Assembly: GCA_024235175.1 (NCBI GenBank)
Contig: JACKMX010000009.1
Coordinates: 32,704-96,703, forward strand
DNA: 64,000 bases
Reading direction: 5' to 3'
Source: Chromatiaceae bacterium
GTDB lineage: Bacteria; Pseudomonadota; Gammaproteobacteria; Chromatiales; Chromatiaceae
Position numbers and translations under genes: made by a program. Positions 5,093 through 64,000 of the stretch are shown in pieces. The notes beneath the pieces are model-generated. The model made no database searches. It saw only the letters and a list, made by a program, of their open reading frames with translations, and was not told the origin of the DNA. The stretch's first letter is position 1. Every line of letters starts with the position of its first letter.

Positions 5093-5123
5093 GTCAGGAC
5101 CTCCTCTGGATCGACTTGACACT

Positions 5124-45190: not shown

Positions 45191-45550
45191 AACTACTACG
45201 AGCGAACAACGGTTATCCGGCCATTCTTGGAGATACCTTGCAAGCAATGCTTACTGGCAGGCAAACAGGGCAGATGAATGATTCCCCAGAAATTCTTCAT
45301 ACTCGTTCACCCTTGATGTCAGTTCTAGTCTGTCGAATTGCGTCGAGATGTGCAGTTACGAGCCTTACGCATCGCTGTCAAAACATTAGCACGGAGAAAA
45401 ATTGTGGGGCAAAGGTTAAATGTTTAGCACAGCGGTAAATCCAACGGGTTAGTAACCCGTCGGCACGCATGCCGGAGATCGGTGTCCCGGCATAATTGAA
45501 AAAGAACCGTGGTGTGTGTGACCGTGACTGCGCGTAGGCGCTGGGGGGGC

Positions 45551-46366: not shown

Positions 46367-46471
46367 AAGCGCTTCTAAGTGACTTGCTTAGCTCAAATTT
46401 AGCAGAATGATAAGAATATTCAAGCGGAATTTGCTTGTTGGGGTTTTTTAGCGCTGCTAGAGTTTAGCACT
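46367..46471. promoter_or_regulatory. Divergent cI/cro-type switch region with repeated TTAGC half-sites
   Basis: This 105-bp AT-rich spacer lies between the divergent repressor and Cro-like genes. TTAGC recurs at about 46388, 46399, 46447 and 46464. Confidence 0.4.
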
Positions 46472-46729
46472 ATGGACCTGAAGCACTTTCTACAATTGGC
46501 ATCGAAACGAGAACGTGCGGCAGTGGCCAGCGCCTGTAATGACTCGGTTCCGTATCTATACCAGATTGCCGGCAAGCACCGCCGGGCAAGCCCACATCTG
46601 GCGACTCAAATCGAGAGAAAGACTCGAATGGTTGCCACTAAAACCAATGGTCGGCTGGAAATGGTGCCTCGTGAAAGCCTCGTTCGCCACCCGGAGATAT
46701 TCACCGGGTTTGAGCCGGAGGACGAGTGA
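46472..46729 (+). CDS. Cro/YdaS-like small HTH regulator
   Basis: It is 85 aa and divergent from the repressor. ...AVASACNDSVPYLYQIAGKHRRASPHLATQIE... resembles YdaS/Cro-type proteins. Confidence 0.65.
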   Translation: MDLKHFLQLASKRERAAVASACNDSVPYLYQIAGKHRRASPHLATQIERKTRMVATKTNGRLEMVPRESLVRHPEIFTGFEPEDE

Positions 46730-48318: not shown

Positions 48319-48323
48319 AGACG

Positions 48324-48929
48324 ATGGAAGGGACCAAGGAGGCCGATCTGGTTGCCGCGGTTTTGATGTACGCCATCCGCTGTCTGGCCGAAGGCGATCA
48401 GGCGGCCCTGCGTAACATGAAATTCGGTCCCTCGGAGATCGAAGCCCTGCGGGAGATGAGTCTTGCAGACCTCTATCGGATCGAGTCACTGCGAGCCCAC
48501 TGCCTGGAGATCGGGCTGAACCGGCAAGTCTACTGGCCGATGATCGATCGTCTGCGCGAGCAGCGGGAATCCGAGGAGACCCTGCGGACATTGATTGCTG
48601 CCGATGCCCCTCATGAGATGGTGCAGGTACTCTATGGGCTGAATGCTCGGGACTATACCCGACTGCGCCGTATCTTGTCGGTAACCCCTTCAGTGGGAAG
48701 ACCTTCGGAGCCGGATGAGAAGAGCTCTCACCGGCTCTGGGATGCCTGGGTACGCCGGGACGATGGAGAGGAGACTGGCTTACTGACCCCGGAGGTCTAT
48801 CTGGAGCTCCAGCGGGAAACACAAGTCCCCCTGCGAGCAATCTGGAGCCTGACCCAGCGTTGGGCACAATATGGCAACCTGACCGGCCAGAATGAGGAAG
48901 AGAACGCGCAAGTCAGTGGCAATGAATGA
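48324..48929 (+). CDS. DUF2857-like island replication-module protein (STY4526-type, from memory)
   Basis: The size, the position after the ParB-like gene, and the string ...AIRCLAEGDQAALRNMKFGPSEIEALR... fit the SPI-7/PAPI-1-type ICE gene order. I could not confirm this by search. Confidence 0.5.
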   Translation: MEGTKEADLVAAVLMYAIRCLAEGDQAALRNMKFGPSEIEALREMSLADLYRIESLRAHCLEIGLNRQVYWPMIDRLREQRESEETLRTLIAADAPHEMVQVLYGLNARDYTRLRRILSVTPSVGRPSEPDEKSSHRLWDAWVRRDDGEETGLLTPEVYLELQRETQVPLRAIWSLTQRWAQYGNLTGQNEEENAQVSGNE

Positions 48930-50178
48930 GCCAGTCCGCTCACAGACACTGGCCCTGGATGCGCTCATCGAGAAGACTGTCGCCCAGGTTGCAGCCTCAG
49001 CTCAGCTTGGACCCGCGGACCAGATGCTTTTTCTCGGCAACCGGCATCATGCTTTTCCCACCGTGGTAATAAAAGATCCGGTCCTGGAACCGGTGGATAA
49101 GCTAGTGTGGATGGTTATCATGTTGGGGGTACAGGAGACTGGAGGCAATACCTCCTTTCCCGGTTACGGCGCCATCGGTAGAATGGCCAACATCGCCTCC
49201 CGCACCACCATTGCCCGGGCCATTGCCATCCTGCGAGCCACCCGTTGGCTGACCCTTTGTCGTCGGGTGCGCACGCTCAGTGGACGATTTTGTGGCAACG
49301 TCTATGCCTTGCACGATGAGCCTCTTCCCCTGGTTGATACTTGTCATCTTGACGCCGACTATTGGGTCTTTCTGCAAAAAGCCGTCGAGCACGCGCATGG
49401 CAGGGTACGGGCCGTTGCCCAGGGTGTCCTATGTTCCATCAACGAGGACGCTGCCAGGGGGCTGAATGTGTTGGATCAGGCACATCCCATCGAACGCCGA
49501 ATCGAATTGGTTGTGGGGTCTCCGGAAGCAGGGAGCCGACGGTTCTTCTCCTTCACCCGCACTGCTGTTCGGCAACTCCGCAAGGAGCTGGTTACGGCTC
49601 AGCAGACAAATTCTGACCATGACCAAAATATGAACATGGACCATGATCAAAATATGAACACGGTGTGTAGTAGTAGTTATATAAATAATAAAAAAACAAC
49701 TACAGAGACAACGGTGTCAAAATTTGACCTGGCAGATGAAGACGGCTGGCCGCTGGTCTACCCAAGACGTCTCAGCGACAGCCACCGTGAGCTCGCCAAC
49801 AGCTACCTGGCATCCCTTGCGCCGGCGCAGCGCCAGCCTGTCCTCGATGAGCTGGAGGGGCGCTTGCAGGCAGAGCAGAAAGGAATGAAGCCGGTCTACG
49901 ACGAGATCAGCTTTCTGATATCGCTCTGTAATCTCACAAAACAGGGGAAGTTTCAGCCCAACCTCGGGATCAAGGTCAGAGCGCATCGCCTGGAGTGCGA
50001 AGCCATCCGGCAACGGGCGCGGGCTGCGGCAGCAATCTCGCCTGAAACCAAGGAGCAGCGGGAAAAACGTCAGGCCGAAGGACAGGCTCGCCTCACTTCC
50101 ATGCGCCGGGCCCTGGGTAAGTCCCACCACCAGGCATTGGCTCCAACTAATGACGACTCCAAGACGCCCTCCGAGTGA
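48922..50178 (+). CDS. STY4528-like island replication protein with winged-HTH (from memory)
   Basis: ...IGRMANIASRTTIARAIAILRATRWLTL... is an HTH. The start ATG overlaps the upstream stop (ATGAATGA); the ORF is open from 48892. Confidence 0.55.
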   Translation: MNEPVRSQTLALDALIEKTVAQVAASAQLGPADQMLFLGNRHHAFPTVVIKDPVLEPVDKLVWMVIMLGVQETGGNTSFPGYGAIGRMANIASRTTIARAIAILRATRWLTLCRRVRTLSGRFCGNVYALHDEPLPLVDTCHLDADYWVFLQKAVEHAHGRVRAVAQGVLCSINEDAARGLNVLDQAHPIERRIELVVGSPEAGSRRFFSFTRTAVRQLRKELVTAQQTNSDHDQNMNMDHDQNMNTVCSSSYINNKKTTTETTVSKFDLADEDGWPLVYPRRLSDSHRELANSYLASLAPAQRQPVLDELEGRLQAEQKGMKPVYDEISFLISLCNLTKQGKFQPNLGIKVRAHRLECEAIRQRARAAAAISPETKEQREKRQAEGQARLTSMRRALGKSHHQALAPTNDDSKTPSE

Positions 50179-50627
50179 TTCCAGTGGAATCAGGTGTCAA
50201 ATATTGAACTCGGTAAAAAACCCAACAGTCTGTGTTCTGGTTTTGGCTTGTTTACAAATCCGGCGCATACGCTCATAGGCCCTACACGAGACGAATCGAG
50301 CCAAGGCCCCATGAACGCGGAAGACCCGATTTATTCTCCGAATATCCCAAGCGACTCTCAAGTATTACCCGCCCCTGAATCGATAGGTCCGCTCGAAACG
50401 CCTTGCCAGTGATTCCAGTGGAATCAGGTGTCAAATATTGAACTCGGTAAAAACCCCAACAGCCGGTGTTCTGGTTTTGCCTTGTTCGTAAATCTGGCAC
50501 ATGCGCTCATAGGCCCTACACGAAACGAATCGAGCTAAGACCCCATGAACGCGGAAGACCCGATTTATTCTCTGAATCCCCAAAACGATTCTCAAGCATT
50601 GCCTGCCCCCGAGGCAGTGGGTCCGCT
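50175..50627. repeat. Tandem ~234-bp duplication carrying a palindrome, promoter region and the 5' end of the downstream gene
   Basis: Copy 1 (50175-50393) and copy 2 (50409-50627) are collinear and mostly identical by eye; the first ~45 nt are identical. Each starts with GATTCCA-g-TGGAATC (50177-50191 and 50411-50425) and contains ATGAACGCGGAAGACCCGATTTATTCT. Confidence 0.85.
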
Positions 50628-51348
50628 ACGTGGCCAGATCTGGTTGACGATTCAGACGCGTCAGGCCCAGCAGCTCGTTCGGGGACGAAGTGGTACCCCC
50701 GATAAGCCGCCGATCATCGGATTGGTGGGATTCGCCGACCGTCTGCGGGTGATCTGGCAGGCGGCACGCAATGACGATCCTTACGCCGACTGGTGGCTGA
50801 TCAAGGTCCATGAAGGCATCGAGGCGACCGGGATGCTGATCCAGCAGCGCCAGCAGGCATTAGCCTCGTTGTTGCAGAAGATGGAATCGATCGAGGTCAC
50901 CACCGCTGCATCCCAGCATCCATTCCGCATGCCGCTTCAGTTTGCCAACCCATATGCATATCAGGGCGCAAAGCATTTGTCGGCCTACGACACCCTGGTG
51001 TGTATGGCATTGACCGCCCACCATATCGGCCTGCTGGACCGCGCAGCCTGCCAGGGGGAACTCAATGTTTGCGCCCGCAAAATCCGATCCCTCTTTGTCA
51101 TTCCGCAGAGTTACCGGTTTCTGGGTGTCGATCGTCCGTTGATCCACCGGGGTACCGCGGAAAGCGAGCGTGCAGGACATCTCATGGGGGAGTTGCCGGC
51201 GGATGTGCTCAGCGGTGAACGCCAGGCGCCATTGGTCCCACGGAAGGTGCGCTTTCCAAATGGGTTTGCCGGCAACAGGTCTTTACATTCCAAACCGTCC
51301 GTCTCGAACCCACACCCACCCGACAGGGAAAACGAGACCAGTCCATGA
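50545..51348 (+). CDS. Hypothetical island protein (possibly PFL_4669-family ICE protein)
   Basis: 267-aa ORF in the ICE-type module. The family call rests only on size and position. Confidence 0.5.
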   Translation: MNAEDPIYSLNPQNDSQALPAPEAVGPLRGQIWLTIQTRQAQQLVRGRSGTPDKPPIIGLVGFADRLRVIWQAARNDDPYADWWLIKVHEGIEATGMLIQQRQQALASLLQKMESIEVTTAASQHPFRMPLQFANPYAYQGAKHLSAYDTLVCMALTAHHIGLLDRAACQGELNVCARKIRSLFVIPQSYRFLGVDRPLIHRGTAESERAGHLMGELPADVLSGERQAPLVPRKVRFPNGFAGNRSLHSKPSVSNPHPPDRENETSP

Positions 51349-51425
51349 GTGTATTTGCACTGGTATGCATCTCCACCGGGACGATAATCCGATACAGATT
51401 CGAGTGCTGACGGGATGTTGAATCC

Positions 51426-51761
51426 ATGGCAAAGACAAAGCCCGGAATGCGCGTTGCCTTGCAACTCGATACCCGTATTGCACTGGAGGCGATCATCCTG
51501 AACCGGCTGCAGCGAATCCCTGCAAACAGGCGTCAGGAGTGGCTGCGCGGACTACTGGTGCAGGGATTTCGTCAGGAGTGCCAGGCACTGCGAGGGACGA
51601 TGGATGAAACACAACAGCCCGCTGCGATGGCTTTTACGCCCCGACTGAAAGGCACGATGACAAGTTCTTCAGACAACCCGATGGCCATACCGAATACGCC
51701 GTCGCCAGCTGCTGGCAGCACCGGCAAACCGTTTGCAGCTTTGGGCAGGGTGATCGGCTAG
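51426..51761 (+). CDS. Hypothetical island protein
   Basis: 111-aa ORF co-oriented with its neighbours. I recognised no motif. Confidence 0.45.
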   Translation: MAKTKPGMRVALQLDTRIALEAIILNRLQRIPANRRQEWLRGLLVQGFRQECQALRGTMDETQQPAAMAFTPRLKGTMTSSSDNPMAIPNTPSPAAGSTGKPFAALGRVIG

Positions 51762-51808
51762 GGCAAGCCCGTGATCGATCACCGGCCAATATAAAGACAG
51801 GAGTTATC

Positions 51809-52825
51809 ATGACAGACGCTTCATCCATTACCCCGGTCGGACTCGATGATGGCTACGCCTACACCAAAGTTGCACTACCGAATGGACGCCTGATCGTTAT
51901 CCCCTCACGTGCCCGGGTGGGACGTTCGGGTGTGACTTGGATCCACCAGGGGCAGCAACGTATTTTTGAGTACGAGACCGAAGGGACGCGCTACTCGGTC
52001 GGTGCCGTGGATGGTGAACCCACCCATTTCGAGGGGTACCCCTTCTCCGGAATGAATCGGGTTATCGTGCAACATGTGCTGCAGCAAGCGGGGCTGGGTG
52101 GGCAATCCCTGCATGCCGTTTCAGGCCTGCCGGTCAGTGCGTTTTATCTTCAGGATGGTAACCAACGGCACAAGACCCTGGAGAAAAAACGAATGAGTCT
52201 CAAGCAATCGGTGCAGCCGATAGACGGACGATTGCCGGCGGGCATCGCCTTTCATGAGGTGATCCCGGAAGCGCTGGCCGCCTGGTACGACGATGTGATC
52301 GTCGAGCAGAAGGGTGGGGCGGCACTCGATGAGGACCGACTCGCCGTTCCCACGGCTATCGTGGACATCGGTGGCCGCACCACCGATTTCGTGGTGGTGA
52401 AGGACCAGGGTGTCATCCACGGTTCATCCGGCTCCCTGCAGTGCGGGATGCTGGATGTGAAACAGCAGGTGGCCAATGGGATCCAGGAACGTTTCGACCT
52501 GGAGACCCTGGGGGAACAGTTGGTGACACGGGCGGTGGAGAAACAGATCGTGCGGCTGCATGGTAAAGACTACGACATCGCACCCCTGGTCAAGTCAGCC
52601 AAACAGCAGGTCGTAGAACGCATTCATGCGGAAACCCGCCGGCAGTTGGGTCTCGGCGTCGAGCTCGATCGCATCCTGTTCGTCGGTGGGGGAACTGTGG
52701 CTCTAGCCGAGGATATCGCCAACTGGTTTCCGAACCAGGTCATCGCCGAGCATCCCGCGTTTGCCAACGCCCGCGGCATGCTGAAATACCTGCGCTATGT
52801 CTGCGAAGCCTCTGATGCGGCTTGA
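51809..52825 (+). CDS. ParM/StbA-family actin-like segregation ATPase
   Basis: The phosphate-1 motif is VGLDDGYAYTKVAL. A later AIVDIGGRTTDFVVV string and a C-terminal FVGGGTVALAE string give the actin-fold signature. Confidence 0.8.
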   Translation: MTDASSITPVGLDDGYAYTKVALPNGRLIVIPSRARVGRSGVTWIHQGQQRIFEYETEGTRYSVGAVDGEPTHFEGYPFSGMNRVIVQHVLQQAGLGGQSLHAVSGLPVSAFYLQDGNQRHKTLEKKRMSLKQSVQPIDGRLPAGIAFHEVIPEALAAWYDDVIVEQKGGAALDEDRLAVPTAIVDIGGRTTDFVVVKDQGVIHGSSGSLQCGMLDVKQQVANGIQERFDLETLGEQLVTRAVEKQIVRLHGKDYDIAPLVKSAKQQVVERIHAETRRQLGLGVELDRILFVGGGTVALAEDIANWFPNQVIAEHPAFANARGMLKYLRYVCEASDAA

Positions 52826-53035
52826 ACGGCAGCAGATGAATATATACGTGGTCACTGCGGACTCAGTGGCAAACAGGCACCTTCGGACCGGGTAACAGGT
52901 GCAGCGATGTAAGTCGCCGGTCCATCTTCAACGAAACGGAAATTAACCTCCGTTTTCACCACTCTGCCGGGTAAGACTTCCCGCCAGGGAGTTGTGCTTA
53001 TTCCGGACCAAACCAACCCCCAAGGAGAAAGCACC

Positions 53036-53440
53036 ATGTCCAACAACGAAAGTCCCAAATATTTCGATCTTCACACCAGCGGTATCGGCTATCTCAACCG
53101 AGTCCGTGAGGTTACGCCTAAGGAGGGTACCCCCTTCCTCAGCGTCACCATCGCTGCGCTTCGCGGCAGTGTCGACAACGCCCAGTACACGCATTTCGAG
53201 TGTCGCGTGTCCGGCATCCAGGCGCAGAAAGTCATACGCCAGGTCCAGCCGGCACTCGAGGGCAAGTTGAAGGTGCTCATCGGGTTCACACTCAGTGACC
53301 TGTATGCGGATACCTTCATCTTTAAGAGCGGTGACAAGACCGGAGAGACCGGTGTCAGCCTCAAGGCCCGACTGTTGCGTGTGTCATGGGCCAAGGTCGA
53401 CGGTCAGCCGTTCTATAAAGAGCAGGAACACGCTGCGTAA
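53036..53440 (+). CDS. DUF3577-like (STY4534-type) island protein
   Basis: AAGGAGA lies upstream of the ATG at 53036. ...YFDLHTSGIGYLNRVREVTPKEGTPFLSVTIAALRG... matches my memory of DUF3577 proteins from ICEs. Confidence 0.6.
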   Translation: MSNNESPKYFDLHTSGIGYLNRVREVTPKEGTPFLSVTIAALRGSVDNAQYTHFECRVSGIQAQKVIRQVQPALEGKLKVLIGFTLSDLYADTFIFKSGDKTGETGVSLKARLLRVSWAKVDGQPFYKEQEHAA

Positions 53441-53539
53441 CTTCACACCCGCCGGATAACCCATTATCCGGCCCACTTCCACCCCTGGGGGATCACTCCC
53501 CCCGGGACTGATCTTCCCTTCATTTTGAGGAGATCAGTC

Positions 53540-54055
53540 ATGACAACCACGGCATCAACCGTAGCGAAGAAAACGAAAGACCGTTTCGATGGTTTTTTAT
53601 TAACTGAACTTAACGACGCGGAGAAGCAATCACTCAAGGCATTGGCGCTGACCCTGTTAGCGGAGCAGCACCAGCCGGGAAAAACGCTGACCAGTCCGGA
53701 GGAGACGCGCAATTATCTGCGTCTGCGACTGGCTGAATACAAGAACGAGGTGTTCGGATGTGTGTACCTCGACAACCGCCATCGGATCATCGACGTCGCC
53801 GAGTTGTTTCACGGCACCATCGATGGTGCTTCGGTTCATCCACGGGTTGTGGTGCAGCAGTCGCTTCAATTGAATGCTGCCGCGATAATTTTTTACCACA
53901 ACCACCCGTCGGGAGTCGCCGAACCCAGCCATGCGGACGAGGCTATAACCCGCAGGTTAAAAGAAGCCCTGGCGCTGGTTGATGTACGGGTGCTTGATCA
54001 TTTCGTGGTTACCGCCGGTGAAAGTGTTTCGTTTGCGGCCCGCGGAATTTTATGA
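53540..54055 (+). CDS. radC: RadC-like JAB-domain protein
   Basis: The JAMM motif is ...[25 protein letters not shown].... GAGGAG lies upstream of the ATG at 53540. Confidence 0.85.
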
Positions 54056-54149
54056 TGGTTCGATAATTTTTACAGACTCTGCCGGGAAAGCACACACTTT
54101 CCCGACAGGGAAGGAGGTGCGACCTGGCGCTAATCCAACAAGGAGATAG

Positions 54150-54581
54150 ATGATGTCAAGCACTTCCAATGAACAGTCTGCCGAATCCTATTTTGGTGAG
54201 GTAATTTCCACCTATACCCGTGCCCAGGCTATCGAAGATGGCGTTCTGGTCGATGCGGGTCCCATGGCAAAGGAAGTTGGATTCACGTTGCCGGTCGCTC
54301 TGACAGCTGCTGTTTGGGCCGATTGTGTAGTTTGGACCGACGACGACAGTCGAAAAATGCCTTTTCAGGATCAGTCCGGGAGACTTTACGACGTGCTGTT
54401 CATGGCATCCTTTGCCATTCGAACCAGTGCGGATTCCGGTGACCGGCTGCTGTATGAACTCTACCGGGTTCCACGTGATGGATACTCGACAGAGGCCAAG
54501 CCGGTGACACTGAAACTAATCATCGGACCGGGTGACCAAGGCGAACCTGTCCTAACTATTCTGTTGCCTGAGGAGAGTTGA
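54150..54581 (+). CDS. Hypothetical island protein
   Basis: 143-aa ORF containing ...YTRAQAIEDGVLVDAG.... It is the last co-oriented gene of the module. Confidence 0.55.
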   Translation: MMSSTSNEQSAESYFGEVISTYTRAQAIEDGVLVDAGPMAKEVGFTLPVALTAAVWADCVVWTDDDSRKMPFQDQSGRLYDVLFMASFAIRTSADSGDRLLYELYRVPRDGYSTEAKPVTLKLIIGPGDQGEPVLTILLPEES

Positions 54582-55101
54582 ACATAGCCGGAATCCTCCG
54601 GCATCTTGCCCCTGGCCACTTGGGACAAAGTGGCACCTCTTTACTCGCTTGGTTTCATCCAGGTGAACACTCCAGGTCTCCCTTTCTACCAATCTATTGT
54701 GTGTAGCAATTGTGTAAAGGTTGTTCTTGTTCGGAAGTTTTTTCTTTGTAGGAGACGGGAAGTCGAGTCCCAGATGACTTGACAGCTGCAGCCAAGGAAT
54801 AGCGAAGTCAATGACTGCAAACGCCTAACTGCGGCCGGTCAGGTTCGCCAAGAATTGCTTTGGCGACAAGACGGCACTTCGGCAAATGCCGCCGTTGGTT
54901 CTGCGCAACGCCGACGGCCGGTATGGATTGTTAACCGGTCGTTGGACCGGTAATCATGTCGAATGGCTGCTTTGATCTTTTCGTTACGGCCGGATCCGAC
55001 ACTTAGCTGCCGATGAGCTGATAGCCAAATTGCCTATTCCGTCTGGGACAAGATAGACTACTCCTCAGAAAAAACTCATTGGGCCACGGAGTTTAGAGAA
55101 G

Positions 55102-58100
55102 TTGACCGGAACAGCATCCAGTCCAGCAGCGAGTGGCCCGGCCGGCTCACATTTTGAAGGGCAGGTCGGCGCTTATTACCTGCTGTCTATGCTGGCGGGC
55201 GCGGAACCGCGCGGACTGCCCGGCACGAATATTGAGCGTGTCGAATTCCAGCGAGCCGCCGAGGGACATCCACTCGATGACGTGATTGTCTATGCCTATG
55301 ACGGACGGTCTGCAGCCGTCCTCGAAATACAAGTAAAACGGGCTATCACATTTACACCGGGAGATACTGTCTTCAAGGCAGTCGCCGACCAGATCGCCGA
55401 AGCCTCTCGAAAACCGGAATTCGATGCCTCCCGGTACGAACTCGCGATTGCCACGTCCCGGTCCTCGCAGAAGATCGACGGTCCGTATCAGGATGTTCTG
55501 ACTTGGGCGCGTCAAATCGGCGATGCAGCGACGTTCGCGGCTCGCATCGAACGAAAAGGTTCGGCGAATGACGACATGCGGCGCTTTGTGAACACATTCA
55601 GGACGCATTTGGGGAATGCCGGCGTCTCGACCGATGACGAGAATGTCTGGCGGCTTCTGCGTCGCCTTCACATCCTCGTCTTTGATTTCACGGCCCCCGG
55701 TTCGGCTTCCAGGGAACTGGCGCTTGAGCGTACCGTCTCCGTGTTGCATAGCGACGACGCATCACGCGGAGCCGAACTGTGGTCTGTTCTGATTGAGACA
55801 GCGATCGAGACCGCTGCCAGCGGTGGTGATCGTAACCGCGAGACCCTTGCAGGCGAACTCGTTCAAAGATCCTTCATATTATCTGGAGAACGCCGCTTCA
55901 GCTCAGCGCGTGCCGCCATTGCGGAAGCATCGCGGCACGCTCTTGACGATATACACGACCGCGTCGGCGATGCGATGCTCACGCGGCATGCTCAGGTCGC
56001 CGAGGTTCGGGAAGCTCTCGATCACGGGCGCTACGTCGAGATACGCGGTGACGCCGGTGTTGGAAAGTCCGGTGTACTGAAGCATTTCGCACGGCAAATC
56101 CAAGACGAAACGCAGGTACTTGTATTGAGTCCGACTCGAACGCTTCCTGGTGGCTGGCTAGCCATGCGCGGAACTCTCGGCTTCGACGGGTCCGCTCGGG
56201 AGCTGCTGTCGGATATGGCGGGCGACGGCGCAGCAATAGTCTTTATCGATAACCTGGACTTCTTTTCCGAAGATAAACGAACGACAGTACGGGATCTTGT
56301 TCGCGAAGCCTCGGAGATACCTGGCGTATCCGTGATTGCAACGGTGCGGCGCGATTTCGGCAAAGATGAACAGAACTGGCTGCCGAAGGAAGCGCTTTCT
56401 CGCCTGGGAAATGCGACTCCAGTCGTAATCCAAGAGCTGGGAGATGCAGAGGTAGACGAATTGCGCTCGCTGGCTCCCGGTCTAATCCCGTTGCTCGCCG
56501 AATCTCACCCGGCACGCGATGTGACACGGAACCTCTTTCGGCTGGATCGCCTTGCAAGCCTCGGCGGCGACGAACCTGTGCCGCGAACTGAATTCGAGAT
56601 GGCACGGCAATGGTGGCTGTCCGCCGACGGTCATCAAGATGCCAAGCACCGCGAGCGCCGCCGGCTGCTAAAGAAGCTTGCCGAACAGGCTATCTCTCAA
56701 GTGGAGCCATTCGACGTGAGCGACGAGCCCGCGCCGGTCGTCGATGCGCTGGTTGCCAGCGAGACGCTGCGTGACCTTGACGGCGACAAGGTCACGTTCC
56801 GTCACGATGTACTGCGTGAATGGGCGATTGCGAACCTGCTGTACGATGATCTGTCGTTGATCTATACGCTACCCCTGCAACATCCTGCGCCGCCAGCGCT
56901 CGCGCGGGGCACCGAACTCGCGGCACGCGCAACCCTTGAGCTTGCCGCTGACAGCGCGGGCTGGCAATCGTTGCTCGAATCGCTCAACCGAGACGGTATT
57001 CACGGCTCGTGGCGCCGCGCCGCGTTGCTCGCGCTCGTGCGTTCCGAGCGTGCTGGCAACCTGCTGCAATCCGCCTCGGCATATCTCTTTTCGGATAACG
57101 CGCGCGTTCTTCGTGAACTTCTCCGGACAGTCATTGCTGTTGAGGTACAACCGGCCAACCCTCTGTTGACTGCCCTGGGCCTTGATCCCGATACGATACC
57201 GGCAGGTCTCAGTTTTCCGACCAGTCCTTCCTGGCTTCGCCTGATCGGCTGGCTGCTTACGCTTGGTGACGCACTTCCCAACGCAGCGATTCCCGATATC
57301 GTAGATCTATACACGACATGGTCGGGCGGGATGTTCGGCCAGGACCCCCTCACACCCTCGGTCCTTCATTCTCTCTATCGCTGGCTGACGGAGATCGAAT
57401 CTGCCCGCGAGGGCAGGACATTCACAGACTTTCGCACACCGTTCGACGGCGAGATCGAGCATGAGCAGCTTCGCACGCTGGAGTCCGAACTTCGAGCCTA
57501 TTTTCTCGTGTTCAGCAACCGCGTCCCGGAACTCGCCGCGCAATATCTTCGAGAACTGGGGCAACGCTGCCATAGCGAGGAAGCAAAATTTGGTGTTGTT
57601 CAGTCCAGTGGCACGCTTGCGCAAGCGGCGCCGCATGAACTCGCGGAACTGACGCTTGCAGCACTCATCCCGGAACCTGATCCTGACGACGGGTATTACC
57701 GTGAGGAATACCGAAAGCCTTTTGACTGGCACGACAGCGACCTCCTTCCAGCGTCCCCGGCGCAAGGACCATTCTTCGCGCTGCTGACGCACGCTCCGGC
57801 AGAAGGGAAGAGAGTTGTCGACCGGCTCGTAGAGCACGCCGTCTTCTTTTATACCGATGGACGTGATCCTGGTGACAACACGATTGATGTAGAACTGAGC
57901 GGTGGCGTGCGCAGCTTTCCCTGGATGCGCACCTATACATGGTCGCGGGAGGGCGCGGGTAAACTGCCTGACTTCTGCGCTCATGGCGCTCGAAGCATGG
58001 GCGCATCACAGGATCGAAGCCGAGGAGGACTTCGAGGCTGTGCTTGCCGACATACTCGGCCCACCGGGCTCTCCGGCCGCCTACTTGCTCGTTGCTGTTG

Positions 58101-60262
58101 ATCTCATACTCTCGCACTGGCCGAAATCCCGCGAGGCAGCTATACCGTTTCTCGCGAGTCCCGAACTCCTGTGTATCGATCGTCAGCGTTTAGTCCACGA
58201 CAACTTAGAGGTTCCCGACATTCTCGGCATTAAGGATCTGCAAAGGGAGCCCAAGGGAACGGTTGATCTGGACAGCCTGAAGAAACGTCATTCAAGGCGT
58301 GCGTCCCTTGACAACGCCCTTTGGCACTACGCGGTCTTCGCCCCTCCTGAACAAAGGGAGATACTGGCCGGACTTCTCCGCCAGTCCGCAGACCGGCTTG
58401 GCCAGCCTGAGGCATCCTCTGACTTAGGCGATCCGGCATTGATGGCCGTACATGCCCTGAATCAGATCGATCCGGCCAACTGGAAAGAAATACCTGTAGA
58501 GCTTGAGGACGGCTCAGTCGGAACCGGACATCAATATATCCCGCCACCTGCTGAGGCTGCGCATTTCGCCGCATTTGAAGAGGATGTCCGGAACAACACC
58601 GAAACGGCGAACATGCAAGCGTATCTGGGGCTTATTCTCGACAACCCCACCCGATCATCGCCGGAAGGCGCTTCCGCGGTTGTACATTGGGCGCAGGACA
58701 ACGAGTCTGCTCCCGAGGATGGTGAAGAAGACACGGCATGGATACGCGAGCAGGCGATTCTGGCGGCTGCAATGAGTGCGATGCGTGACGGGGACGACAC
58801 GCTGAGGCGGGAGAGCGCCGAATGGGCGCAGGGTGTATTCGCGCAAGCCCTTGCGCAAGAAGAGGACCACGTGCATCGGAGCCGTGGCGGGTTACGCTTC
58901 AACCCGCCGGGGATTGCGTTCGTGGGCATGGTTCATGCCGTGAAGCACGGCGTCACGACACTGACTCTCCGGGATCTGCTTGACATTGCGGCCAGCGGCA
59001 ACCCGGCCGCCGCACACGGCCTTCGTGCGTCTGCCGCAGCGGTCGCGGAAATCGACGAACGCCTGCCGCGCGCCTTGGTGCGTTGTGCCTTCGCATCGTG
59101 CGTTCGGCCGAATACGCGCTGGGACGCACCGGAGGACGAAGCAGGAGCATTGTCGAAGCGCCAACGCAAACACATGGACGGCGTCCTCCAGGCCGAAGCG
59201 GACTGGCTCACCGGCACAGGCGATGAACCGGACTGGCCGGAGTTTCCGCCGCAGATGCGACGGACCCGCCGTGTCTTTCGATTACCCGGCGGACGGGCGG
59301 AAGTTTCGCCATCCGTATCGGAACAAGAGCTGCCTGACATATACGTTGACCACCAGGCTGCGGCACTCTGGCTGAATGGAATCGGCAGCCTGTTTGACGT
59401 GACGGCGAATCCCTGGCTGCGCGAGGTTGCGCGCCATTACATGTCATGGACTGCTGGTGCAAACGGTGCGGGACTCGAAGCGCATGAAGAAATCACCGAC
59501 ACGCCTCATGAATGGAACGACGCGTTCCTCCATTTGCTCTCAGTTTCTCTGCCGGGCATGACCATGCCTGAAATACATAAGCAATTCGTAGAGCCGATAT
59601 GCTCTCTCCCAGACAAGCCGTTTTTCGATATTCTCGCGCCGCTTCTGAGAAGAATTGACGAGGTGTACTTCAACGCCTCCATCCTTGACGAATCCGTCGC
59701 GCTGCAGTTGCGCGCCGAATTCGCGGACAGAATGATGCAGGCAAGCGGCTGGCATTACCTAGCCGGAAAACGAGGCGCGTCAGTGGAGGTTCACATAGGT
59801 CCGGCTCTCAGTGCCCTGTTTTTCGGCGAGAGCGGTTTTGTCATCCAGCCCCGGAGCTACCTGCTATCCAAGGCTGTAGACCGCCTTGGTCCGTTCTTGC
59901 CTGTGCTCAGCAAACTCATTAACAACGCTCCATCCCTTCCGGTCGCGACTGTCACAGTCAATCTGCTGGAGGTATCGCCCAGACCGCAGCATCTTGCCTT
60001 CGTCATCGATGCAGCCAAGACGTGGCTGGAAGCCTTTCCGGATGACAGCGACTTCTGGGTCGATTATGGAATCGGGCGTCGGATATGCGTGTGGCTCGAA
60101 GCTATCTTGCAGCAAGACCCGGATCTGCTCGCGAGTACAAGTTCCTTGCACGACAACGTTGATCGAATCCTGTCCGCCCTGGTTAGTCTCGGCATTGCTG
60201 AGGCTCACCGCCTTGAAGAGGCCATGACCACCGCGTCCGCAAAAAGCTCGACGGAAAAGTGA
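55102..60262 (+). pseudogene. Frameshifted giant gene: N-terminal PD-(D/E)xK-like nuclease domain, P-loop NTPase and a long helical C-terminal region (Avs/STAND-like)
   Basis: Two ORFs (55102-58101, TTG start; 57902-60262) overlap by 200 nt in adjacent frames. Protein-like sequence switches frame in the G-rich stretch around 57944-57964. Walker A GDAGVGKS is at 56047-56070 and Walker B-like AIVFIDNLD follows. The N-terminal strings are ...GSHFEGQVGAYYLLSML...LDDVIVYAY...LEIQVKR. Confidence 0.65.
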
Positions 60263-60461
60263 TGCACCAGTCTCTTAACTATCCTAGTGGTCCATCTATA
60301 TATGCCCCTCCCAATTCGTGCTAGCCTAGACTTAGTTGAGCTTGAGTATCCGTAAAGGTCCGATTCTGGCCGATTGCACGCATCCAATATTCCGCCAGAT
60401 TGCGGCCAGTCGATAGTCGGCAACACAATCAGACTCCCATCAACTAAGAAGGAGTCTGACA

Positions 60462-60973: not shown

Positions 60974-61054
60974 CAGGGTGGCCGCGGCCGCACGCAGGCG
61001 CCATGATGAGCTTCGTGCGGCCGCTTTCGGGCACGACGCCGAATGCGTGCAACC

Positions 61055-62664
61055 GGCCGATACTGTTGAAAAACTCGATGAGTGAAGTGCTGTTTTCTGC
61101 CCAGAGAAAGAGCTAAGGGGATGCATTCTTGTTTTCATGTCCCATTATCGCCCTTGATGAGGGTTTATAATGGTTAATCTTCGTGGTTTAGCCCTAAACA
61201 GGCGCAACTACCCTCTGATCGGGTGGTGACTGACCGCATAGCGCCACCATTCTTTTTAAGTTCTGTGCCGTTGCGGTCAACAGAAATTCATCATTGGCCC
61301 CTTTTAATCCGCGAAGCCGTAATCGATCTAGTTTGAAATTACGTTTCATGTGGGCAAACAGCATCTCTACTTTTTTTCGCTCGCAAGATGATTGCTTTTT
61401 AAATCGTTCGGTTTGATTAATCGCCCGAGCTACATCGCGCGAAGCTTCATAAATGCTACGAGTGACTTTTCGAGCCGATGTGTTGGGGCAACAGCAAAGC
61501 TTGTAATCACATTCCTCGCAATCATGTTTGCTGGCACGGTAGTTAATGGTATTGGCTTTTGTAATGCCTTTACGCTGATTTTTAAACGGACGCCGATAAT
61601 GTTGTAATCGTTTACCCGCAGGACATTGATACTGGTCAGCTTCATCCTCCCAGATAAAGTCTGTACGACTGAATGTTCCGTCATCACGCTACGATTTGTC
61701 ACAAACAGGGACGTGTGGCTCGATCCCTTTTTCTTCAACCAGGTAACCTAGCATACTGGCAGTCCCATAAGCGGTGTCACCCATAAGCCGCTTTGGTTTG
61801 AGTTTGCGGTTATCTTCAATGTGCTCTAGCAGCGTCTTTGTACTTTCAACTTCATCGGTACGAAAAGCGGGTGTGGCTTCCACGTTCAGAATGACCCCGT
61901 GTTCCACATCAATCATGTAGTTGGTGGAGTAGGCAAAGAATGCTGGGCTTTTGGCTGCGGTCCATCTTGCCATAGGATCGGTAAGGGAGATGCTCTGAGG
62001 CATATTTATCGTTGGGCCACTGTCCAGTGCTTCCAGGTATTCACGTACGGGACGTGACTGCTGCTTTGCTGGACCCCAGTCGATACGCTCTGTGCCGCGG
62101 ACGGCGCGCTGACGACTGACGTCGGCTTTTACCAGGCTGGCATCAATCGCAAAGCCCTCACCTTTGACTAGACCTTCACCCATGCAGCGTTGAACAACGG
62201 TTTCAAAGACGAAACGGAAAATATCACTCTCTCGATAACGACCATGGCGGTTTTTTGAAAAGGTGGAATGATCTGGAATGCTATCTTCGAGTCCTAAACG
62301 ACAAAACCAGCGGTAGGCTAGATTGAAATTGATTTCCTCACACAGTCGCCGCTCTGAACGGATACCGTAGCAATAGCCAACCAACAACATTCGAATCATT
62401 AATTCTGGATCGATTGATGGCCTGCCTGTATGGCTATAAAAGGAATGAAGGTGTCGGCGTATCTGATCGAAGTCTAGAAACTGATCTATTTGACGAAGAA
62501 GATGGTCGGGCGGAATATGACGTTCAAGGCAAAAATCATAAAACAAGGAGTTTTGTGCTGCGGGTAACTGCCCCATCATGAGTGCGCATCCTCATCGGCG
62601 ATAACACGCAGTAATTATCTCATATGTGCTGCTATCTAGAGGGAGTTTTTCAACAGAATCGGCC
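61055..62664 (-). mobile_element. IS1182/IS5-like insertion sequence, 1610 bp, with 22-bp terminal inverted repeats
   Basis: GGCCGATACTGTTGAAAAACTC (61055-61076) matches the reverse complement of 62643-62664 (GAGTTTTTCAACAGAATCGGCC) at 21 of 22 positions. Confidence 0.75.
61194..62579 (-). pseudogene. IS1182-family transposase interrupted by one in-frame TAG
   Basis: The 296-aa N-terminal ORF (62579-61689) reads ...DHLLRQIDQFLDF...TGRPSIDPELMIRMLLVGYCYGIRSERRLCEE.... After a TAG (plus-strand 61689-61691) the same frame continues for about 165 codons (RDDGTFSRTDFIWEDEADQYQCPAGKRL...LKRMVALCG...) to a stop at 61194-61196. Confidence 0.75.
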
Positions 62665-62984
62665 AGTAGCTGCCGGTCGCCGGGTGTCTGCCGACAGGCA
62701 GCTTAAAACGCATTGCGGACCTTGACTGGGGAAGCGGCAATGCCTGGAATCGATCCGAAGCGGCTGATCAATCATCCCGAAATAAATTCTTAGTGAACTA
62801 TCAATACAATCGCATTTGAAGAATTAACGATAATTGAGTATTCAGTGTCAGCTTTTTTTACAATTCTATGACTGCACTTAAAGAAATGGGTAATTAACCA
62901 CATGATATATATATATAATTCCTTTATTGCATAACTTTTGCATGTTTGTTAGGAGAGTTTTGATCCTGTAGGAGAAAATAACAA

Positions 62985-63626
62985 ATGAATAAACTTGTAA
63001 AGGCTTGTGCTGCAACAATCACAATCTTTGCGTTCTACCTATGTATGGTTTCGGTTTCTTACGCCTTGAGTATTGACTTTGAATCAGATACCGATGGTGA
63101 AGTGATCGATACAAAGTATGCACCAGACATGACGTTAAGCTCTTTTAGTAATACCGAGGGAACTTTGAGCACATTACCTACTGATTCCGGTAACGATGTG
63201 ATTGCTTCTAATTTTGGTTTAACTCTATTTCAAGCTGCAAGAGGAACAGGCGGCACTGAAGGGGTGCTAATAACTTTTGGCGACATCATGTCAAGTGTAA
63301 CGATTACTGGAATCGATACAGGTGGCGATCAAACTGATGATAATGAAACCATGTATTTGTCAGCTTTCAATAGTCTTGGAAACCTTCTCGTCGCACAAGC
63401 ATTCAGTGGGTTATGGGCTCAACCAAATTCTCGCGTTGGAACCTTGACAATAGACGGGATTAAGCACGTAGCGTTCACCTTTGGAAATACTACTAGAGGT
63501 GTTTATGGTATTGATTCAGTCGAGGCCACTGAAATGACAATTCCCGAACCAACGACCCTAGCTTTGATGGGCCTCGGCCTAGCCGGTATCGGCTACCAAC
63601 GGCGACGCAGTAAAAAAGCCGCATAA
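62985..63626 (+). CDS. PEP-CTERM sorting-domain protein
   Basis: It has a signal peptide (AATITIFAFYLCMVSVSYA). The C-terminal IPEPTTLALMGLGLAGIGYQRRRSKK gives the PEP motif, a TM helix and a basic tail. The gene and its leader are visibly AT-rich compared with the rest of the window. Confidence 0.85.
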   Translation: MNKLVKACAATITIFAFYLCMVSVSYALSIDFESDTDGEVIDTKYAPDMTLSSFSNTEGTLSTLPTDSGNDVIASNFGLTLFQAARGTGGTEGVLITFGDIMSSVTITGIDTGGDQTDDNETMYLSAFNSLGNLLVAQAFSGLWAQPNSRVGTLTIDGIKHVAFTFGNTTRGVYGIDSVEATEMTIPEPTTLALMGLGLAGIGYQRRRSKKAA

Positions 63627-63646
63627 GCAGTAATCCGAGACCCACA

Positions 63647-63690
63647 ATAACCCCGTTACGATTCGCCCTGGCGGGGTTTATTAGTGTTTG
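63647..63690 (+). terminator. Possible intrinsic terminator after the PEP-CTERM gene
   Basis: AACCCCG...CGGGGTT stem is followed by TTATTAGTGTTT. The loop is long, so the call is weak. Confidence 0.35.
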
Positions 63691-64000
63691 ATGTAAGTCT
63701 GCAACCGCTGAACAACGGTCTTTCCCCAGGTCGGTGCTGACCGGCAGCAGTGTGTCGTGAACGGCCCTCTGGTAAATCAAAAAGCCGCCACTCGAAGCAT
63801 TTTTCCGGCAACGTCCGGTAAGCGATTCGAAGCAGTCGCAGCTAGCTCTATTCGCCAGCGGCTGCTTTGGTTTAGGTTTGTAGGACAGCAGCGATCACGA
63901 CTCGCTGCCGGGGTTGTCCACCGCCAGCGGCTGCTGTCTAACAAAGCGCCAAGAACGAAACCGCGACGACTGTCGTGAGGGTAACGCTGATCCGCCAGGC

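What the first reader, a model, noticed from the sequence alone, without database searches (positions are those of the whole stretch)
55102..60262. Frameshifted ~1720-codon gene with nuclease-like N-terminus, P-loop NTPase and long helical C-terminus: Avs/STAND-like defence candidate, possibly inactivated
ORFs 55102-58101 and 57902-60262 overlap by 200 nt in adjacent frames. The tail of the first (RSMGASQDRSRGGLRGCACRHTRPTG...) and the head of the second (ACAAFPGCAPIHGRGRARV) look like out-of-frame GC-rich translation. Protein-like sequence passes from ...SFPWMRTYTWSREG to NCLTSALMALEAWAHHRIEAEEDFE across the G-run CGCGGGAGGGCGCGGG (about 57944-57960). This is consistent with a 1-nt insertion or 2-nt deletion. 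The N-terminus (GSHFEGQVGAYYLLSML...LDDVIVYAY...LEIQVKR) has the D...E-x-Q-x-K spacing of PD-(D/E)xK / DUF4297-type nucleases. Walker A GDAGVGKS (56047-56070) and Walker B-like AIVFIDNLD follow. About 1300 aa of helical-repeat-like sequence then complete the gene. Effector nuclease, then NTPase, then a large sensor is the architecture of antiviral STAND (Avs)-type proteins. The gene sits between a mobile island and transposon debris, a typical defence-island context.
Basis: partly seen in the sequence, partly recalled or inferred. Interest (0 to 1): 0.7.

Follow-up and report, generated by a model that had tools for sequence, protein, structure and literature searches.

The report
Frameshifted Avs4-like antiviral STAND nuclease gene
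This is a recently broken copy (two bases missing) of a 1,720-codon bacterial "pattern-recognition" immune gene distantly related to the phage-portal sensor Avs4; the gene family is real and widespread but uncharacterised, and the broken copy itself is an ordinary pseudogene.

Summary
ORFs 55102-58101 and 57902-60262 are two halves of one gene. More than 1,000 homologues exist, and the typical one is a single protein of 1,705-1,730 aa. The best is 91% identical. Against the three closest intact genes, the window lacks 2 nt (AAC TAC became AAAC) at 57962/57963. This lies just 3' of the G-run, not inside it.

No other lesion is present. dN/dS (0.25) matches that of intact pairs, so the break is recent or a sequencing error.

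The protein has four parts:
- An N-terminal module with a predicted PD-(D/E)xK-type core fold, with invariant E19, D59/D60, Q77 and K79.
- A STAND NTPase with Walker A, Walker B, a T-x-R sensor-1-like motif and a conserved RHD motif.
- A winged helix.
- An alpha-solenoid of about 1,100 aa.

The only solved relative by sequence, and the top structural match, is Avs4 (8dgf). A profile-profile comparison gives 99.6% probability, E 2.6e-24, over residues 284-1264. The curated Avs4 models are far from met, and the N-terminal 600 aa match PADLOC candidate PDC-M54A. There is no conserved partner gene. Contexts are integrative or conjugative elements, toxin-antitoxin genes and defence genes.

Verdict: a divergent Avs4-like single-gene defence protein, inactivated here. 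It is a new member of a known kind, of low to moderate interest.

The parts
54986..55101 (+). Leader that travels with the gene. It holds a conserved GGAG Shine-Dalgarno 10 nt before the TTG start. The upstream GTG that gene callers used in the closest relatives is ATT here (55078).
   Evidence: The blastn block shared with L001, L010 and L011 starts at 54986-55006. The TTG and GGAG are conserved in L001, L010 and L011.
55102..57962 (+). In-frame 5' part of the gene (codons 1-953 plus 2 nt). It encodes the nuclease-like effector, the STAND NTPase, the winged helix and the first third of the sensor.
   Evidence: AF2 model: pLDDT 84.4.
55102..55971 (+). N-terminal effector module (aa 1-290). The core (aa 15-118) has an alpha-beta-beta-beta-alpha-beta order, and a helical subdomain follows. 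Invariant residues are E19 (55156-55158), D59-D60 (55276-55281), and Q77 and K79 within E75-K79 (55324-55338); E75 is conserved in at least 90% of sequences.
   Evidence: Invariant columns come, and secondary structure. Q77-V-K79 aligns with Q63-S-K65 of EcAvs4. There is no Pfam hit and no PDB sequence hit. The module matches the N-terminus of PADLOC PDC-M54A.
55985..56436 (+). P-loop NTPase (nucleotide-binding) domain. It carries Walker A GDAGVGKS (56047-56070), Walker B AIVFIDNLD (56233-56259) and a sensor-1-like T414-x-R416 (56341-56349).
   Evidence: Invariant residues are G316, G319-S323, F381, D383, T414 and R416. Pfam hits to AAA_16, nSTAND5 and nSTAND1 fall below threshold. The region aligns with the EcAvs4 NTPase.
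56437..56871 (+). Helical domain and winged helix of the STAND module. The invariant H568-D569 (56803-56808) sits in F-R-H-D-V-L-R-E-W, just after the beta-hairpin wing.
   Evidence: Secondary structure comes and invariant columns. The motif aligns with tHDi.EEWaL of the Avs4 profile. That a conserved WHD histidine sits in the nucleotide pocket of Avs7 is taken from PMC13581612.
56893..57960 (+). Proximal part of the alpha-solenoid sensor (aa 598-953).
   Evidence: The AF2 model is all-helical here. The region is collinear with Avs4 (625-765 against 527-672, and 861 onward against 758 onward).
57961..57964 (+). Frameshift site. Two nucleotides ('CT' of AAC TAC, Asn-Tyr) are missing between 57962 and 57963 relative to all intact relatives.
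57963..58101 (+). Out-of-frame tail of the first ORF, about 46 aberrant codons plus a stop.
   Evidence: No homologue carries this sequence.
57965..60262 (+). Distal sensor in frame +1 (aa 956-1719 of the repaired protein, plus the stop). It is a HEAT/ARM-like alpha-solenoid. Its first roughly 130 residues hold the family's most conserved motif, SALMALEAWAH, which is shared with Avs4.
   Evidence: AF2 pLDDT is 85.8. Foldseek finds only generic solenoids. hhalign homology to Avs4 runs to about aa 1264.
60263..60372 (+). Trailer that travels with the gene. Homology to the other contexts stops sharply at 60372.
   Evidence: There is no attC-like fold and no terminal inverted repeat.

Best explanation
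The region holds one gene for a single-chain antiviral STAND (Avs) protein of about 1,720 aa. It belongs to a divergent, uncharacterised clade related to Avs4.

Inferred mechanism of intact family members, by homology to Avs3, Avs4 and Avs7:
- The resting protein is an autoinhibited monomer.
- The C-terminal alpha-solenoid binds a conserved phage protein.
- Binding lets the nucleotide-bound NTPase domains tetramerise.
- Tetramerisation brings the N-terminal PD-(D/E)xK-type nuclease domains together.
- The nucleases then degrade DNA and abort the infection.

In this window the gene has lost 2 nt in codons 954-955. Translation therefore ends after 953 correct and about 46 aberrant residues, and the distal 764 aa of the sensor are uncoupled. 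The copy is most likely a recent loss-of-function allele carried as cargo at the end of a tRNA-Phe-integrated mobile island.

Shown here: the lesion, the single-gene nature, the homology to Avs4 and the STAND fold, the invariant motif residues and the mobile or defence contexts.

Inferred, not shown: nuclease activity, the oligomerisation mechanism, the anti-phage role, the trigger and the loss of function.
For: Single gene:
- More than 1,000 homologues exist. The typical length is 1,705-1,730 aa at 98-100% coverage, and the best is 91% identical.
- Most copies in 80 species-representative genomes are intact.

Lesion:
- There is a 2-nt gap against L001, L010 and L011.
- The alignment across the junction is GAGNYCLTSAL.

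Recent break:
- dN/dS is 0.25 overall, 0.27 upstream of the break and 0.23 downstream. Intact pairs give 0.20-0.31.
- There is no other stop or indel in 5.2 kb.

STAND/Avs identity:
- The PDB profile search finds only Avs4 8dgf_A (E 1.4e-8, 4 collinear stretches).
- Foldseek gives Avs4 at 8e-17, Avs3 at 6e-13, then Avs5, SAMD9, CED-4 and Apaf-1.
- hhalign against a 5-sequence Avs4 profile gives 99.6%, E 2.6e-24, over 921 columns.
- BLASTP against EcAvs4 gives E 3.8e-6 over 800 aa.
- Intact P0001 hits the PADLOC Avs4 model at 1.8e-8 and PDC-M54A at 1.8e-17.
- A Hymenobacter plasmid protein bridges the two. It has our N-terminal 675 aa (E 2.4e-28) and an Avs4 body (PADLOC Avs4 1e-114).

Effector:
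- E19, D59/D60, Q77 and K79 are invariant, and E75 is conserved in at least 90% of sequences.
- The predicted order of elements is alpha-beta-beta-beta-alpha-beta.
- The QxK motif aligns with Q63-x-K65 of the protein NCBI names 'AVAST type 4 anti-phage nuclease Avs4'.

Context:
- The window carries tRNA-Phe, an integrase, an S24 repressor, AcaB, ParM, DUF3577, RadC and DUF6573 upstream.
- Elsewhere the gene sits in T4SS elements or next to integrases, a TrwC relaxase, AbiEii, HicB, HigB, Hhe and a NACHT protein.
- No partner gene is conserved in 69 loci.

Mechanism of the relatives is taken from PMC13601566 and PMC13581612.
Against: - No experiment exists for any member of this family. Defence, nuclease activity and the trigger all rest on homology.
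- The N-terminal module has no hit in Pfam or among PDB sequences. I could not run a domain-level structural comparison.
- The last roughly 450 aa of the sensor show no specific similarity to Avs4. Foldseek of the C-terminal model returned only karyopherin-like solenoids.
- The curated Avs4 thresholds are far from met: NCBIfam gives 18 bits against a cut-off of 1,500.
- The family is unusually conserved for an immune sensor, at about 55% identity across phyla.
- Without reads, a sequencing or assembly error at 57962 cannot be excluded.
Confidence: 0.8

Rival explanations
1. The gene is intact in the organism, and the 2-nt gap is a sequencing or assembly error.
For: There is only one lesion in 5.2 kb. 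Selection signatures downstream of the break are unchanged (dN/dS 0.23 in the C-part). Several interrupted homologues come from metagenome-assembled genomes, where assembly indel errors cannot be excluded.
Against: The gap is a 2-nt loss inside AAC-TAC, not a length change in a homopolymer. The rest of the 64-kb window carries many long uninterrupted ORFs of 1,632, 1,159, 831, 797, 743 and 708 aa, so the assembly is not indel-ridden. A very recent mutation would give the same dN/dS.
Confidence: 0.2
2. The two ORFs work as a split, two-polypeptide system (nuclease-NTPase plus a separate sensor), or are joined by programmed +1 frameshifting.
For: The ORFs overlap by 200 nt, and a GTG at 57902 opens the second ORF.
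Against: None of the top 120 homologues, and no intact copy in 80 genomes, is split at this point. Interrupted copies elsewhere break at other, unrelated positions. The relatives at 85-93% nucleotide identity read straight through with two extra bases. The break falls in the most conserved sensor motif region, which is shared with Avs4.
Confidence: 0.03
3. The family is a STAND NTPase with a non-defence role, for example a signalling or regulatory ATPase or a maintenance function of the mobile element. The Avs4 resemblance would then reflect only the shared STAND scaffold.
For: Conservation is very high across phyla (about 55% identity) and dN/dS is 0.2-0.3, which is unusual for arms-race sensors. 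Many loci sit inside conjugative or integrative elements. [quoted passage not shown]
Against: Similarity to Avs4 extends well beyond the NTPase into the sensor (to aa 1264) and includes sensor motifs. The N-terminal position holds an invariant E/D/QxK module, as in nuclease-bearing Avs proteins. The same module heads a PADLOC defence candidate and a protein that matches the PADLOC Avs4 model at 1e-114. Neighbours include Hhe, AbiEii, toxin-antitoxin genes and a NACHT protein.
Confidence: 0.1

Closest known systems
Avs4 (AVAST type 4; EcAvs4, PDB 8DGF, phage-portal sensor)
   Same: It has the same single-chain layout and a similar size (1,587 against 1,719 aa): an N-terminal nuclease-type effector with a QxK motif, a STAND NTPase, a winged helix and a long helical sensor. 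It is the only significant PDB sequence hit, the top Foldseek hit and a 99.6% hhalign match over residues 284-1264. Motifs are shared in the sensor (PASPAQGPF..LL against PESPYQTPIYWLL, and SALMALEAW against SIHMALEKF). It is also carried on mobile elements.
   Different: Identity is only about 17-20%. The NCBIfam Avs4 equivalog gives 18 bits against a cut-off of 1,500, and the PADLOC Avs4 model gives only 30 bits, locally. The N-terminal module is about 290 aa, not about 200, and shows no HMMER-detectable similarity to that of EcAvs4. The distal roughly 450 aa of the sensor show no specific similarity. The trigger is unknown.
PADLOC phage-defence candidate PDC-M54A
   Same: It is the best PADLOC match, at E 9e-17 to 2e-17, covering the effector plus NTPase (aa 9-594 against profile positions 10-615). 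The profile length (1,621-1,657) is close to this protein's length.
   Different: Only the N-terminal third matches. The remaining roughly 1,100 aa do not. No conserved partner gene was found for this family in 69 loci. I found no paper describing PDC-M54.
Hymenobacter aerilatus plasmid protein WP_245097727.1 (annotated hypothetical, 1,679 aa)
   Same: It shares the N-terminal effector plus NTPase with this family (24.5% identity over 6-675, E 2.4e-28; family HMM E 2.9e-44).
   Different: Its body is clearly Avs4 (PADLOC Avs4 1.2e-114; 24% identity to EcAvs4 over 900 aa), unlike the window protein. It shows that this effector type combines with Avs4-type bodies.
Other nuclease-bearing Avs families (Avs3 PDB 8DGC; Avs7)
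   Same: They share the STAND core and the effector-NTPase-sensor logic. Foldseek gives E 6e-13 to Avs3. Activation by target-induced tetramerisation of N-terminal nucleases is described in PMC13601566 and PMC13581612.
   Different: SeAvs7 carries a Cap4-type nuclease, and Avs3 and Avs7 detect terminase and major capsid protein rather than portal. No sequence-level similarity was detected outside the NTPase.

Membership tests
STAND NTPase superfamily | P-loop NTPase with Walker A GxxxxGK[ST] and Walker B (hydrophobic strand ending in D) | tested here: met
   GDAGVGKS (aa 316-323) and AIVFIDNLD (378-386) are present, and G316, G319-S323, F381 and D383 are invariant in 59 sequences. The predicted strands lie at 311-316 and 378-382.
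STAND NTPase superfamily | NTPase followed by a helical domain and a winged helix carrying a conserved His that contacts the nucleotide (MHD-like motif) | tested here: met
   The model shows helices at 448-507, then H516-531, H544-552, a beta-hairpin at 556-566 and H569-582. H568-D569 in FRHDVLREW is invariant. It aligns with the HD of the Avs4 profile. Contact with the nucleotide is inferred, not shown.
STAND NTPase superfamily | Structural similarity of the core to solved STAND proteins | tested here: met
   The top Foldseek hits are Avs4, Avs3, Avs5, SAMD9, CED-4 and Apaf-1 (E 8e-17 to 1e-4). Pfam nSTAND5, nSTAND1 and NACHT score only below threshold.
Avs (antiviral STAND) proteins in general | Tripartite single chain: N-terminal effector, STAND NTPase, C-terminal sensor of at least 400 aa made of helical repeats | tested here: met
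   The effector module is aa 1-290, the NTPase and winged helix are aa 295-590, and the alpha-solenoid is aa 598-1719.
Avs (antiviral STAND) proteins in general | Genomic association with defence genes or mobile elements | tested here: met
   The window shows a tRNA-Phe island with an integrase. Homologues sit next to AbiEii, HicB, HigB, Hhe/PDC-S37, a NACHT protein, T4SS genes, a TrwC relaxase and integrases. This is qualitative; I computed no enrichment statistic.
Avs (antiviral STAND) proteins in general | Protection against phage, and cell death on co-expression with a phage protein | not testable with these tools
   This needs plaque assays and trigger screens with an intact homologue.
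Avs4 | Passes the curated Avs4 family model (NCBIfam NF041815 equivalog, cut-off 1,500 bits; PADLOC Avs4 HMM over its full length) | tested here: not met
   NCBIfam gives 18 bits for the first ORF. PADLOC Avs4 gives E 0.059 for the window half and 30 bits, locally (851-1095), for intact P0001. True Avs4 proteins score 382-2,362 bits.
Avs4 | Homology to Avs4 beyond the NTPase, into the sensor | tested here: met
   hhalign gives 99.6%, E 2.6e-24, over 284-1264 against 203-1188. The HMM-to-PDB search finds collinear stretches at 625-765 and 861-1086. The distal roughly 450 aa are not demonstrably homologous.
Avs4 | Sensor binds the phage portal protein | not testable with these tools
   No complex prediction or experiment is available. 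Portal sensing by Avs4 is taken from PMC13581612.
PD-(D/E)xK nuclease superfamily | alpha-beta-beta-beta-alpha-beta core, with an acidic residue at the start of strand 2 and (D/E/Q)xK in strand 3 | tested here: inconclusive
   The predicted elements are H15-32, E43-49, E61-66, E71-79, H89-101 and E111-118. E19, D59/D60, Q77 and K79 are invariant, and E75 is conserved in at least 90% of sequences. No domain-level structural superposition could be run, and there is no Pfam or PDB sequence hit.
   None of 34 N-terminal domains scanned at E up to 10 matched it, and ORF1 gave no hit either.
Integron gene cassette (considered for the 5.4-kb portable block) | An attC site downstream that folds into a stable imperfect hairpin, bounded by RYYYAAC and GTTRRRY | tested here: not met
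   A GTTAAGC follows the block in L001 and L010 but not in the window or L011. The 110-nt trailer folds no better than shuffled sequence on either strand (z 0.2-1.5).

The most novel reading that the evidence does not exclude
The intact family may be a distinct, still unnamed Avs clade that current defence-finding models miss. It would combine an effector module unknown to Pfam with a sensor whose distal third is unrelated to Avs4. It would recognise a phage protein other than the portal, or recognise the portal in a different way. Its unusual cross-phylum conservation (about 55% identity) would reflect a very conserved trigger. The frameshift in this window would be one of many independent losses (about 1 in 9 genomic copies are disrupted), which hints at a fitness cost.
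Probability: 0.35. Interest if true: 0.45.

Novelty: new member of a known kind. Interest (0 to 1): 0.3.

Why it matters
For annotating this genome, the two overlapping ORFs should be merged and flagged as one disrupted gene, an Avs4-like antiviral STAND nuclease pseudogene.

More broadly, the result points to a sizeable and very conserved family. It has more than 1,000 clusters at 90% identity and occurs in at least 163 of 185,579 species representatives. It is found in Pseudomonadota, Acidobacteriota, Nitrospirota, Planctomycetota, Actinomycetota and others.

The Avs4 models of NCBIfam and PADLOC do not recognise the family. Its effector module also has no Pfam entry.

Intact copies exist in isolate genomes, including Pseudomonas taeanensis MS-3, Limnobacter sp. 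MED105, Acidovorax sp. Leaf78 and Neorhizobium petrolearium DSM 26482. Its trigger and nuclease activity are therefore directly testable.

None of this changes the current picture of Avs immunity. It adds one member to it.

Tried and rejected
- **Slip inside the G-run.** Rejected. DNA alignment with three intact relatives puts the 2-nt loss in AAC-TAC, just after the run.
- **Programmed frameshift or split gene.** Rejected. Homologues are never split here, and other disrupted copies break at other places.
- **Conserved partner gene** (PDC-M54 may be a multi-gene candidate, judging by the 'A' suffix of its model name). All-against-all clustering of neighbours in 69 loci found none. The largest cluster (9 loci) is tyrosine integrases. 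A DUF5677 ORF abuts the gene in only 4 loci.
- **Integron cassette or transposon for the portable 5.4-kb block.** There is no attC-like fold and no terminal inverted repeat above shuffles.
- **attR repeat of tRNA-Phe downstream of the gene.** No repeat of 12 nt or more was found.
- **Family assignment of the N-terminal domain.** Pfam at E up to 10 on 34 members, and a PDB sequence profile search, gave nothing meaningful. An exhaustive phmmer search listed only same-family proteins in its top 150, so it said nothing about fusion to other architectures.
- **Full-length Avs4 homologues from the protein database.** A search with a 239-aa EcAvs4 fragment returned only fragments. I took Avs4 sequences from plasmid records instead.
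- **Literature.** Gao et al. 2022 (PMC10028730) is not held. My recollection that Q63A/K65A is the nuclease-dead EcAvs4 mutant is therefore unverified. The supplements of PMC13581612 are not held either, so I could not check whether this clade is among its 589 STAND clades or 684 sensor clusters.

Full report
**Observation**

The window contains ORF 55102-58101 (999 aa, TTG start) and ORF 57902-60262 (786 aa). Both lie on the + strand. The second is in frame +1 relative to the first, and they overlap by 200 nt. Removing one base near 57959 gives an uninterrupted 1,719-aa product.

A search of the 5.8-billion-protein collection with that product gave 1,053 significant hits. The best 120 are almost all single proteins of 1,684-1,750 aa covering 98-100% of the query. 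The closest are 91, 88, 85, 84 and 81% identical.

**The lesion**

All homologues read ...W-S-R-E-G-x-G-N-Y-C-L-T-S-A-L-M-A-L-E-A-W across the junction.

The gene in metagenome contig L001 is 92.9% identical in DNA. There the sequence is GGA AAC TAC TGC CTG, and in L010 it is GGC AAC TAC TGT CTT. The window has GGT AAA CTG CCT G.

The window therefore lacks two bases ('CT' of AAC-TAC) between 57962 and 57963. There is no other stop or indel.

NG86 dN/dS between the window and L001 is 0.25. It is 0.27 upstream of the break and 0.23 downstream. Intact-versus-intact pairs give 0.20-0.31. The break is therefore very recent, or it is an error. The rest of the window has many long intact ORFs, which argues against an indel-prone assembly. 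Only reads can settle this.

The TTG start and a GGAG 10 nt upstream are conserved in the three closest relatives. The upstream GTG that gene callers used in two of them is ATT here.

**Anatomy**

I made two AlphaFold2 models with a 59-sequence alignment. One covers aa 1-953 (pLDDT 84.4) and the other the distal 765 aa (pLDDT 85.8).

- **Effector.** Residues 15-118 form helix-strand-strand-strand-helix-strand. A helical subdomain follows, to about aa 290. E19, D59, D60, Q77 and K79 are invariant in 59 full-length sequences and in 34 N-terminal segments from nine phyla-level groups; E75 is conserved in at least 90% of them. This order of elements and this motif pattern are those of a PD-(D/E)xK core (E in helix 1, D at strand 2, QxK in strand 3). 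That reading is from established knowledge of the fold.
- **NTPase.** Residues about 295-445 form a P-loop domain. It carries Walker A G316-S323, Walker B F381/D383/D386 and T414-x-R416.
- **Winged helix.** A helical bundle follows, then a winged helix that carries invariant H568-D569 (FRHDVLREW).
- **Sensor.** From about aa 598 to the end the protein is an alpha-solenoid.

**What it is related to**

Standard libraries mostly miss it.

- Pfam gives only sub-threshold AAA_16, nSTAND5, nSTAND1 and NACHT hits at the P-loop, and nothing for the second ORF.
- NCBIfam gives nothing real.
- PADLOC gives PDC-M54A (E 9e-17) for aa 9-584 only.

A profile of the family searched against all PDB sequences finds one real hit: Avs4 (8dgf_A, E 1.4e-8). 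Four collinear stretches run from the P-loop into the sensor.

Foldseek of the N-terminal model puts Avs4 first (E 8e-17, more than 900 aligned columns). Avs3, Avs5, SAMD9, CED-4 and Apaf-1 follow.

I retrieved EcAvs4 and four diverse Avs4-like proteins from plasmid records.

- hhalign of the family profile against them gives 99.6% probability, E 2.6e-24, over residues 284-1264 against 203-1188.
- Plain BLASTP against EcAvs4 gives E 3.8e-6 over 800 residues at 20% identity.
- The intact relative P0001 hits the PADLOC Avs4 model at 1.8e-8 in region 851-1095. This is the region the frameshift cuts, which explains why neither half of the window gene scored.
- A Hymenobacter plasmid protein links the groups. 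Its first 680 aa match this family (HMM E 2.9e-44), and its body is Avs4 (PADLOC 1.2e-114).
- Q77-V-K79 aligns with Q63-S-K65 of EcAvs4, which NCBI names an anti-phage nuclease.

The distal sensor model finds only generic HEAT/karyopherin solenoids. The N-terminal 290 aa have no Pfam or PDB sequence match.

**Distribution and context**

A pattern scan of 185,579 species-representative genomes found 163 relatives. They occur in Alpha-, Beta- and Gammaproteobacteria, Acidobacteriota, Nitrospirota, Planctomycetota, Actinomycetota, Myxococcota, Thermodesulfobacteriota, Spirochaetia and Flavobacteriaceae. Isolate genomes are among them. The window's own genome is not in that set; the best match is 62%.

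Most copies are intact. Eight of about 72 complete loci are disrupted, at different positions and often several times.

Clustering of neighbours in 69 loci shows no conserved partner. What recurs is mobility and defence:

- tyrosine integrases in 9 loci;
- a TrwC relaxase, T4SS genes, AbiEii, HicB, HigB and IS elements;
- an Hhe/PDC-S37 helicase-nuclease and a NACHT protein.

In the window the gene is the last cargo of an island that starts at tRNA-Phe (43717-43792). The island carries an integrase, an S24 repressor, DUF2857, AcaB, a ParM-like protein, DUF3577, RadC and DUF6573. A truncated IS5-type transposase follows, and GC drops from 55-60% to 45-49%.

The gene moves with 116 nt upstream and 110 nt downstream as a block (54986-60372). 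Homology to three other contexts ends sharply at its borders. I found no attC-like structure and no terminal repeats.

**Mechanism**

For Avs2, Avs3, Avs4 and Avs7, binding of a phage protein by the sensor drives tetramerisation through the nucleotide-bound NTPase domains. In Avs3, Avs4 and Avs7 this brings the N-terminal nuclease domains together and activates them. Apo Avs7 is autoinhibited (PMC13601566; PMC13581612).

By homology, I infer the same for intact members of this family.

In the window, the 2-nt loss truncates the protein after residue 953 and removes 764 aa of sensor. This includes the SALMALEAW region that is most conserved with Avs4. I infer loss of function.

The trigger is unknown. 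Avs4 senses the portal protein, but the distal sensor here is not demonstrably homologous.

**Comparison and novelty**

The protein meets the tested STAND and general Avs criteria.

It fails the curated Avs4 membership models by a wide margin. I therefore file it as an Avs4-related but distinct clade, not as Avs4.

Its effector plus NTPase is the type found in PADLOC candidate PDC-M54A, for which I found no literature.

A 2026 survey reports 589 STAND clades and 684 sensor clusters. Its tables are not available to me, so the clade may already be catalogued.

The finding is a new member of a known kind. The pseudogene itself is ordinary.

Noticed in passing
window 43717-54581: A genomic island is integrated at tRNA-Phe (43717-43792). 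It carries a tyrosine integrase (43860-44942, -), an S24/LexA-like repressor (45551-46366, -), DUF2857 (48324-48929), an AcaB-like regulator (50545-51348), a ParM-like actin (51809-52825), DUF3577, RadC and DUF6573. No attR repeat of 12 nt or more of the tRNA end was found downstream in the window.
   Followed up: partly
window 54986-60372: The gene plus 116 nt upstream and 110 nt downstream forms a discrete block. Its DNA homology (85-93%) to three unrelated contexts (L001, L010, L011) stops sharply at both ends. In L001 and L010 the block is followed by GTTAAGCG, which resembles an integron core site. However, the trailer does not fold like attC, and there are no terminal inverted repeats. 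How the block moves is unexplained.
   Followed up: partly
window 3233-19206, minus strand: A run of very large co-directional ORFs of unknown function lies here. They are 664, 555 (Kelch repeats), 1,159, 743, 1,632 (DUF6603, E 1e-123) and 607 aa (class 3 lipase domain). Most have no Pfam match. This may be a toxin or secretion-related cluster.
   Followed up: no
window 61000-64000: GC content drops from 55-60% to 45-49% right after the gene's trailer. The stretch holds a truncated IS5-type transposase (DUF772 + DDE_Tnp_1, 61689-62579, -) and a PEP-CTERM protein (62985-63626).
   Followed up: no
L014, L015, L023, L025, L037, L058, L064, L083: About 1 in 9 genomic copies of this family in species-representative genomes are disrupted by stops or frameshifts. 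The lesions sit at different positions, and several copies carry more than one. This suggests recurrent loss, although several of these copies are from metagenome-assembled genomes, where assembly errors cannot be excluded.
   Followed up: partly
L046 2-1057, L052 6683-7975, L059 6488-7957, L068 948-2240: In four betaproteobacterial loci, an ORF of about 430-490 aa abuts or overlaps the start of the Avs4-like gene; the L052 copy, the only one scanned, is a DUF5677 protein. It may be a clade-specific partner.
   Followed up: partly
L096 1400-6439 (Hymenobacter aerilatus plasmid, WP_245097727.1): This protein is annotated 'hypothetical protein'. It combines this family's N-terminal effector plus NTPase with a clear Avs4 body (PADLOC Avs4 1e-114). 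It is evidence that the effector module is exchanged among Avs4-type proteins.
   Followed up: yes
window 55078-55080: At the position where gene callers start the two closest relatives (GTG, giving MGPRSLEK...), the window has ATT. The conserved TTG at 55102, with GGAG 10 nt upstream, is the likelier true start in all of them.
   Followed up: yes
L001 15339-15848: In the closest relative's contig, a short (169 aa) Phage_integrase-family ORF lies 137 nt downstream of the gene. It sits inside a conjugative element that carries DotD, TraI, TcpQ, secretin and TrbI genes.
   Followed up: no
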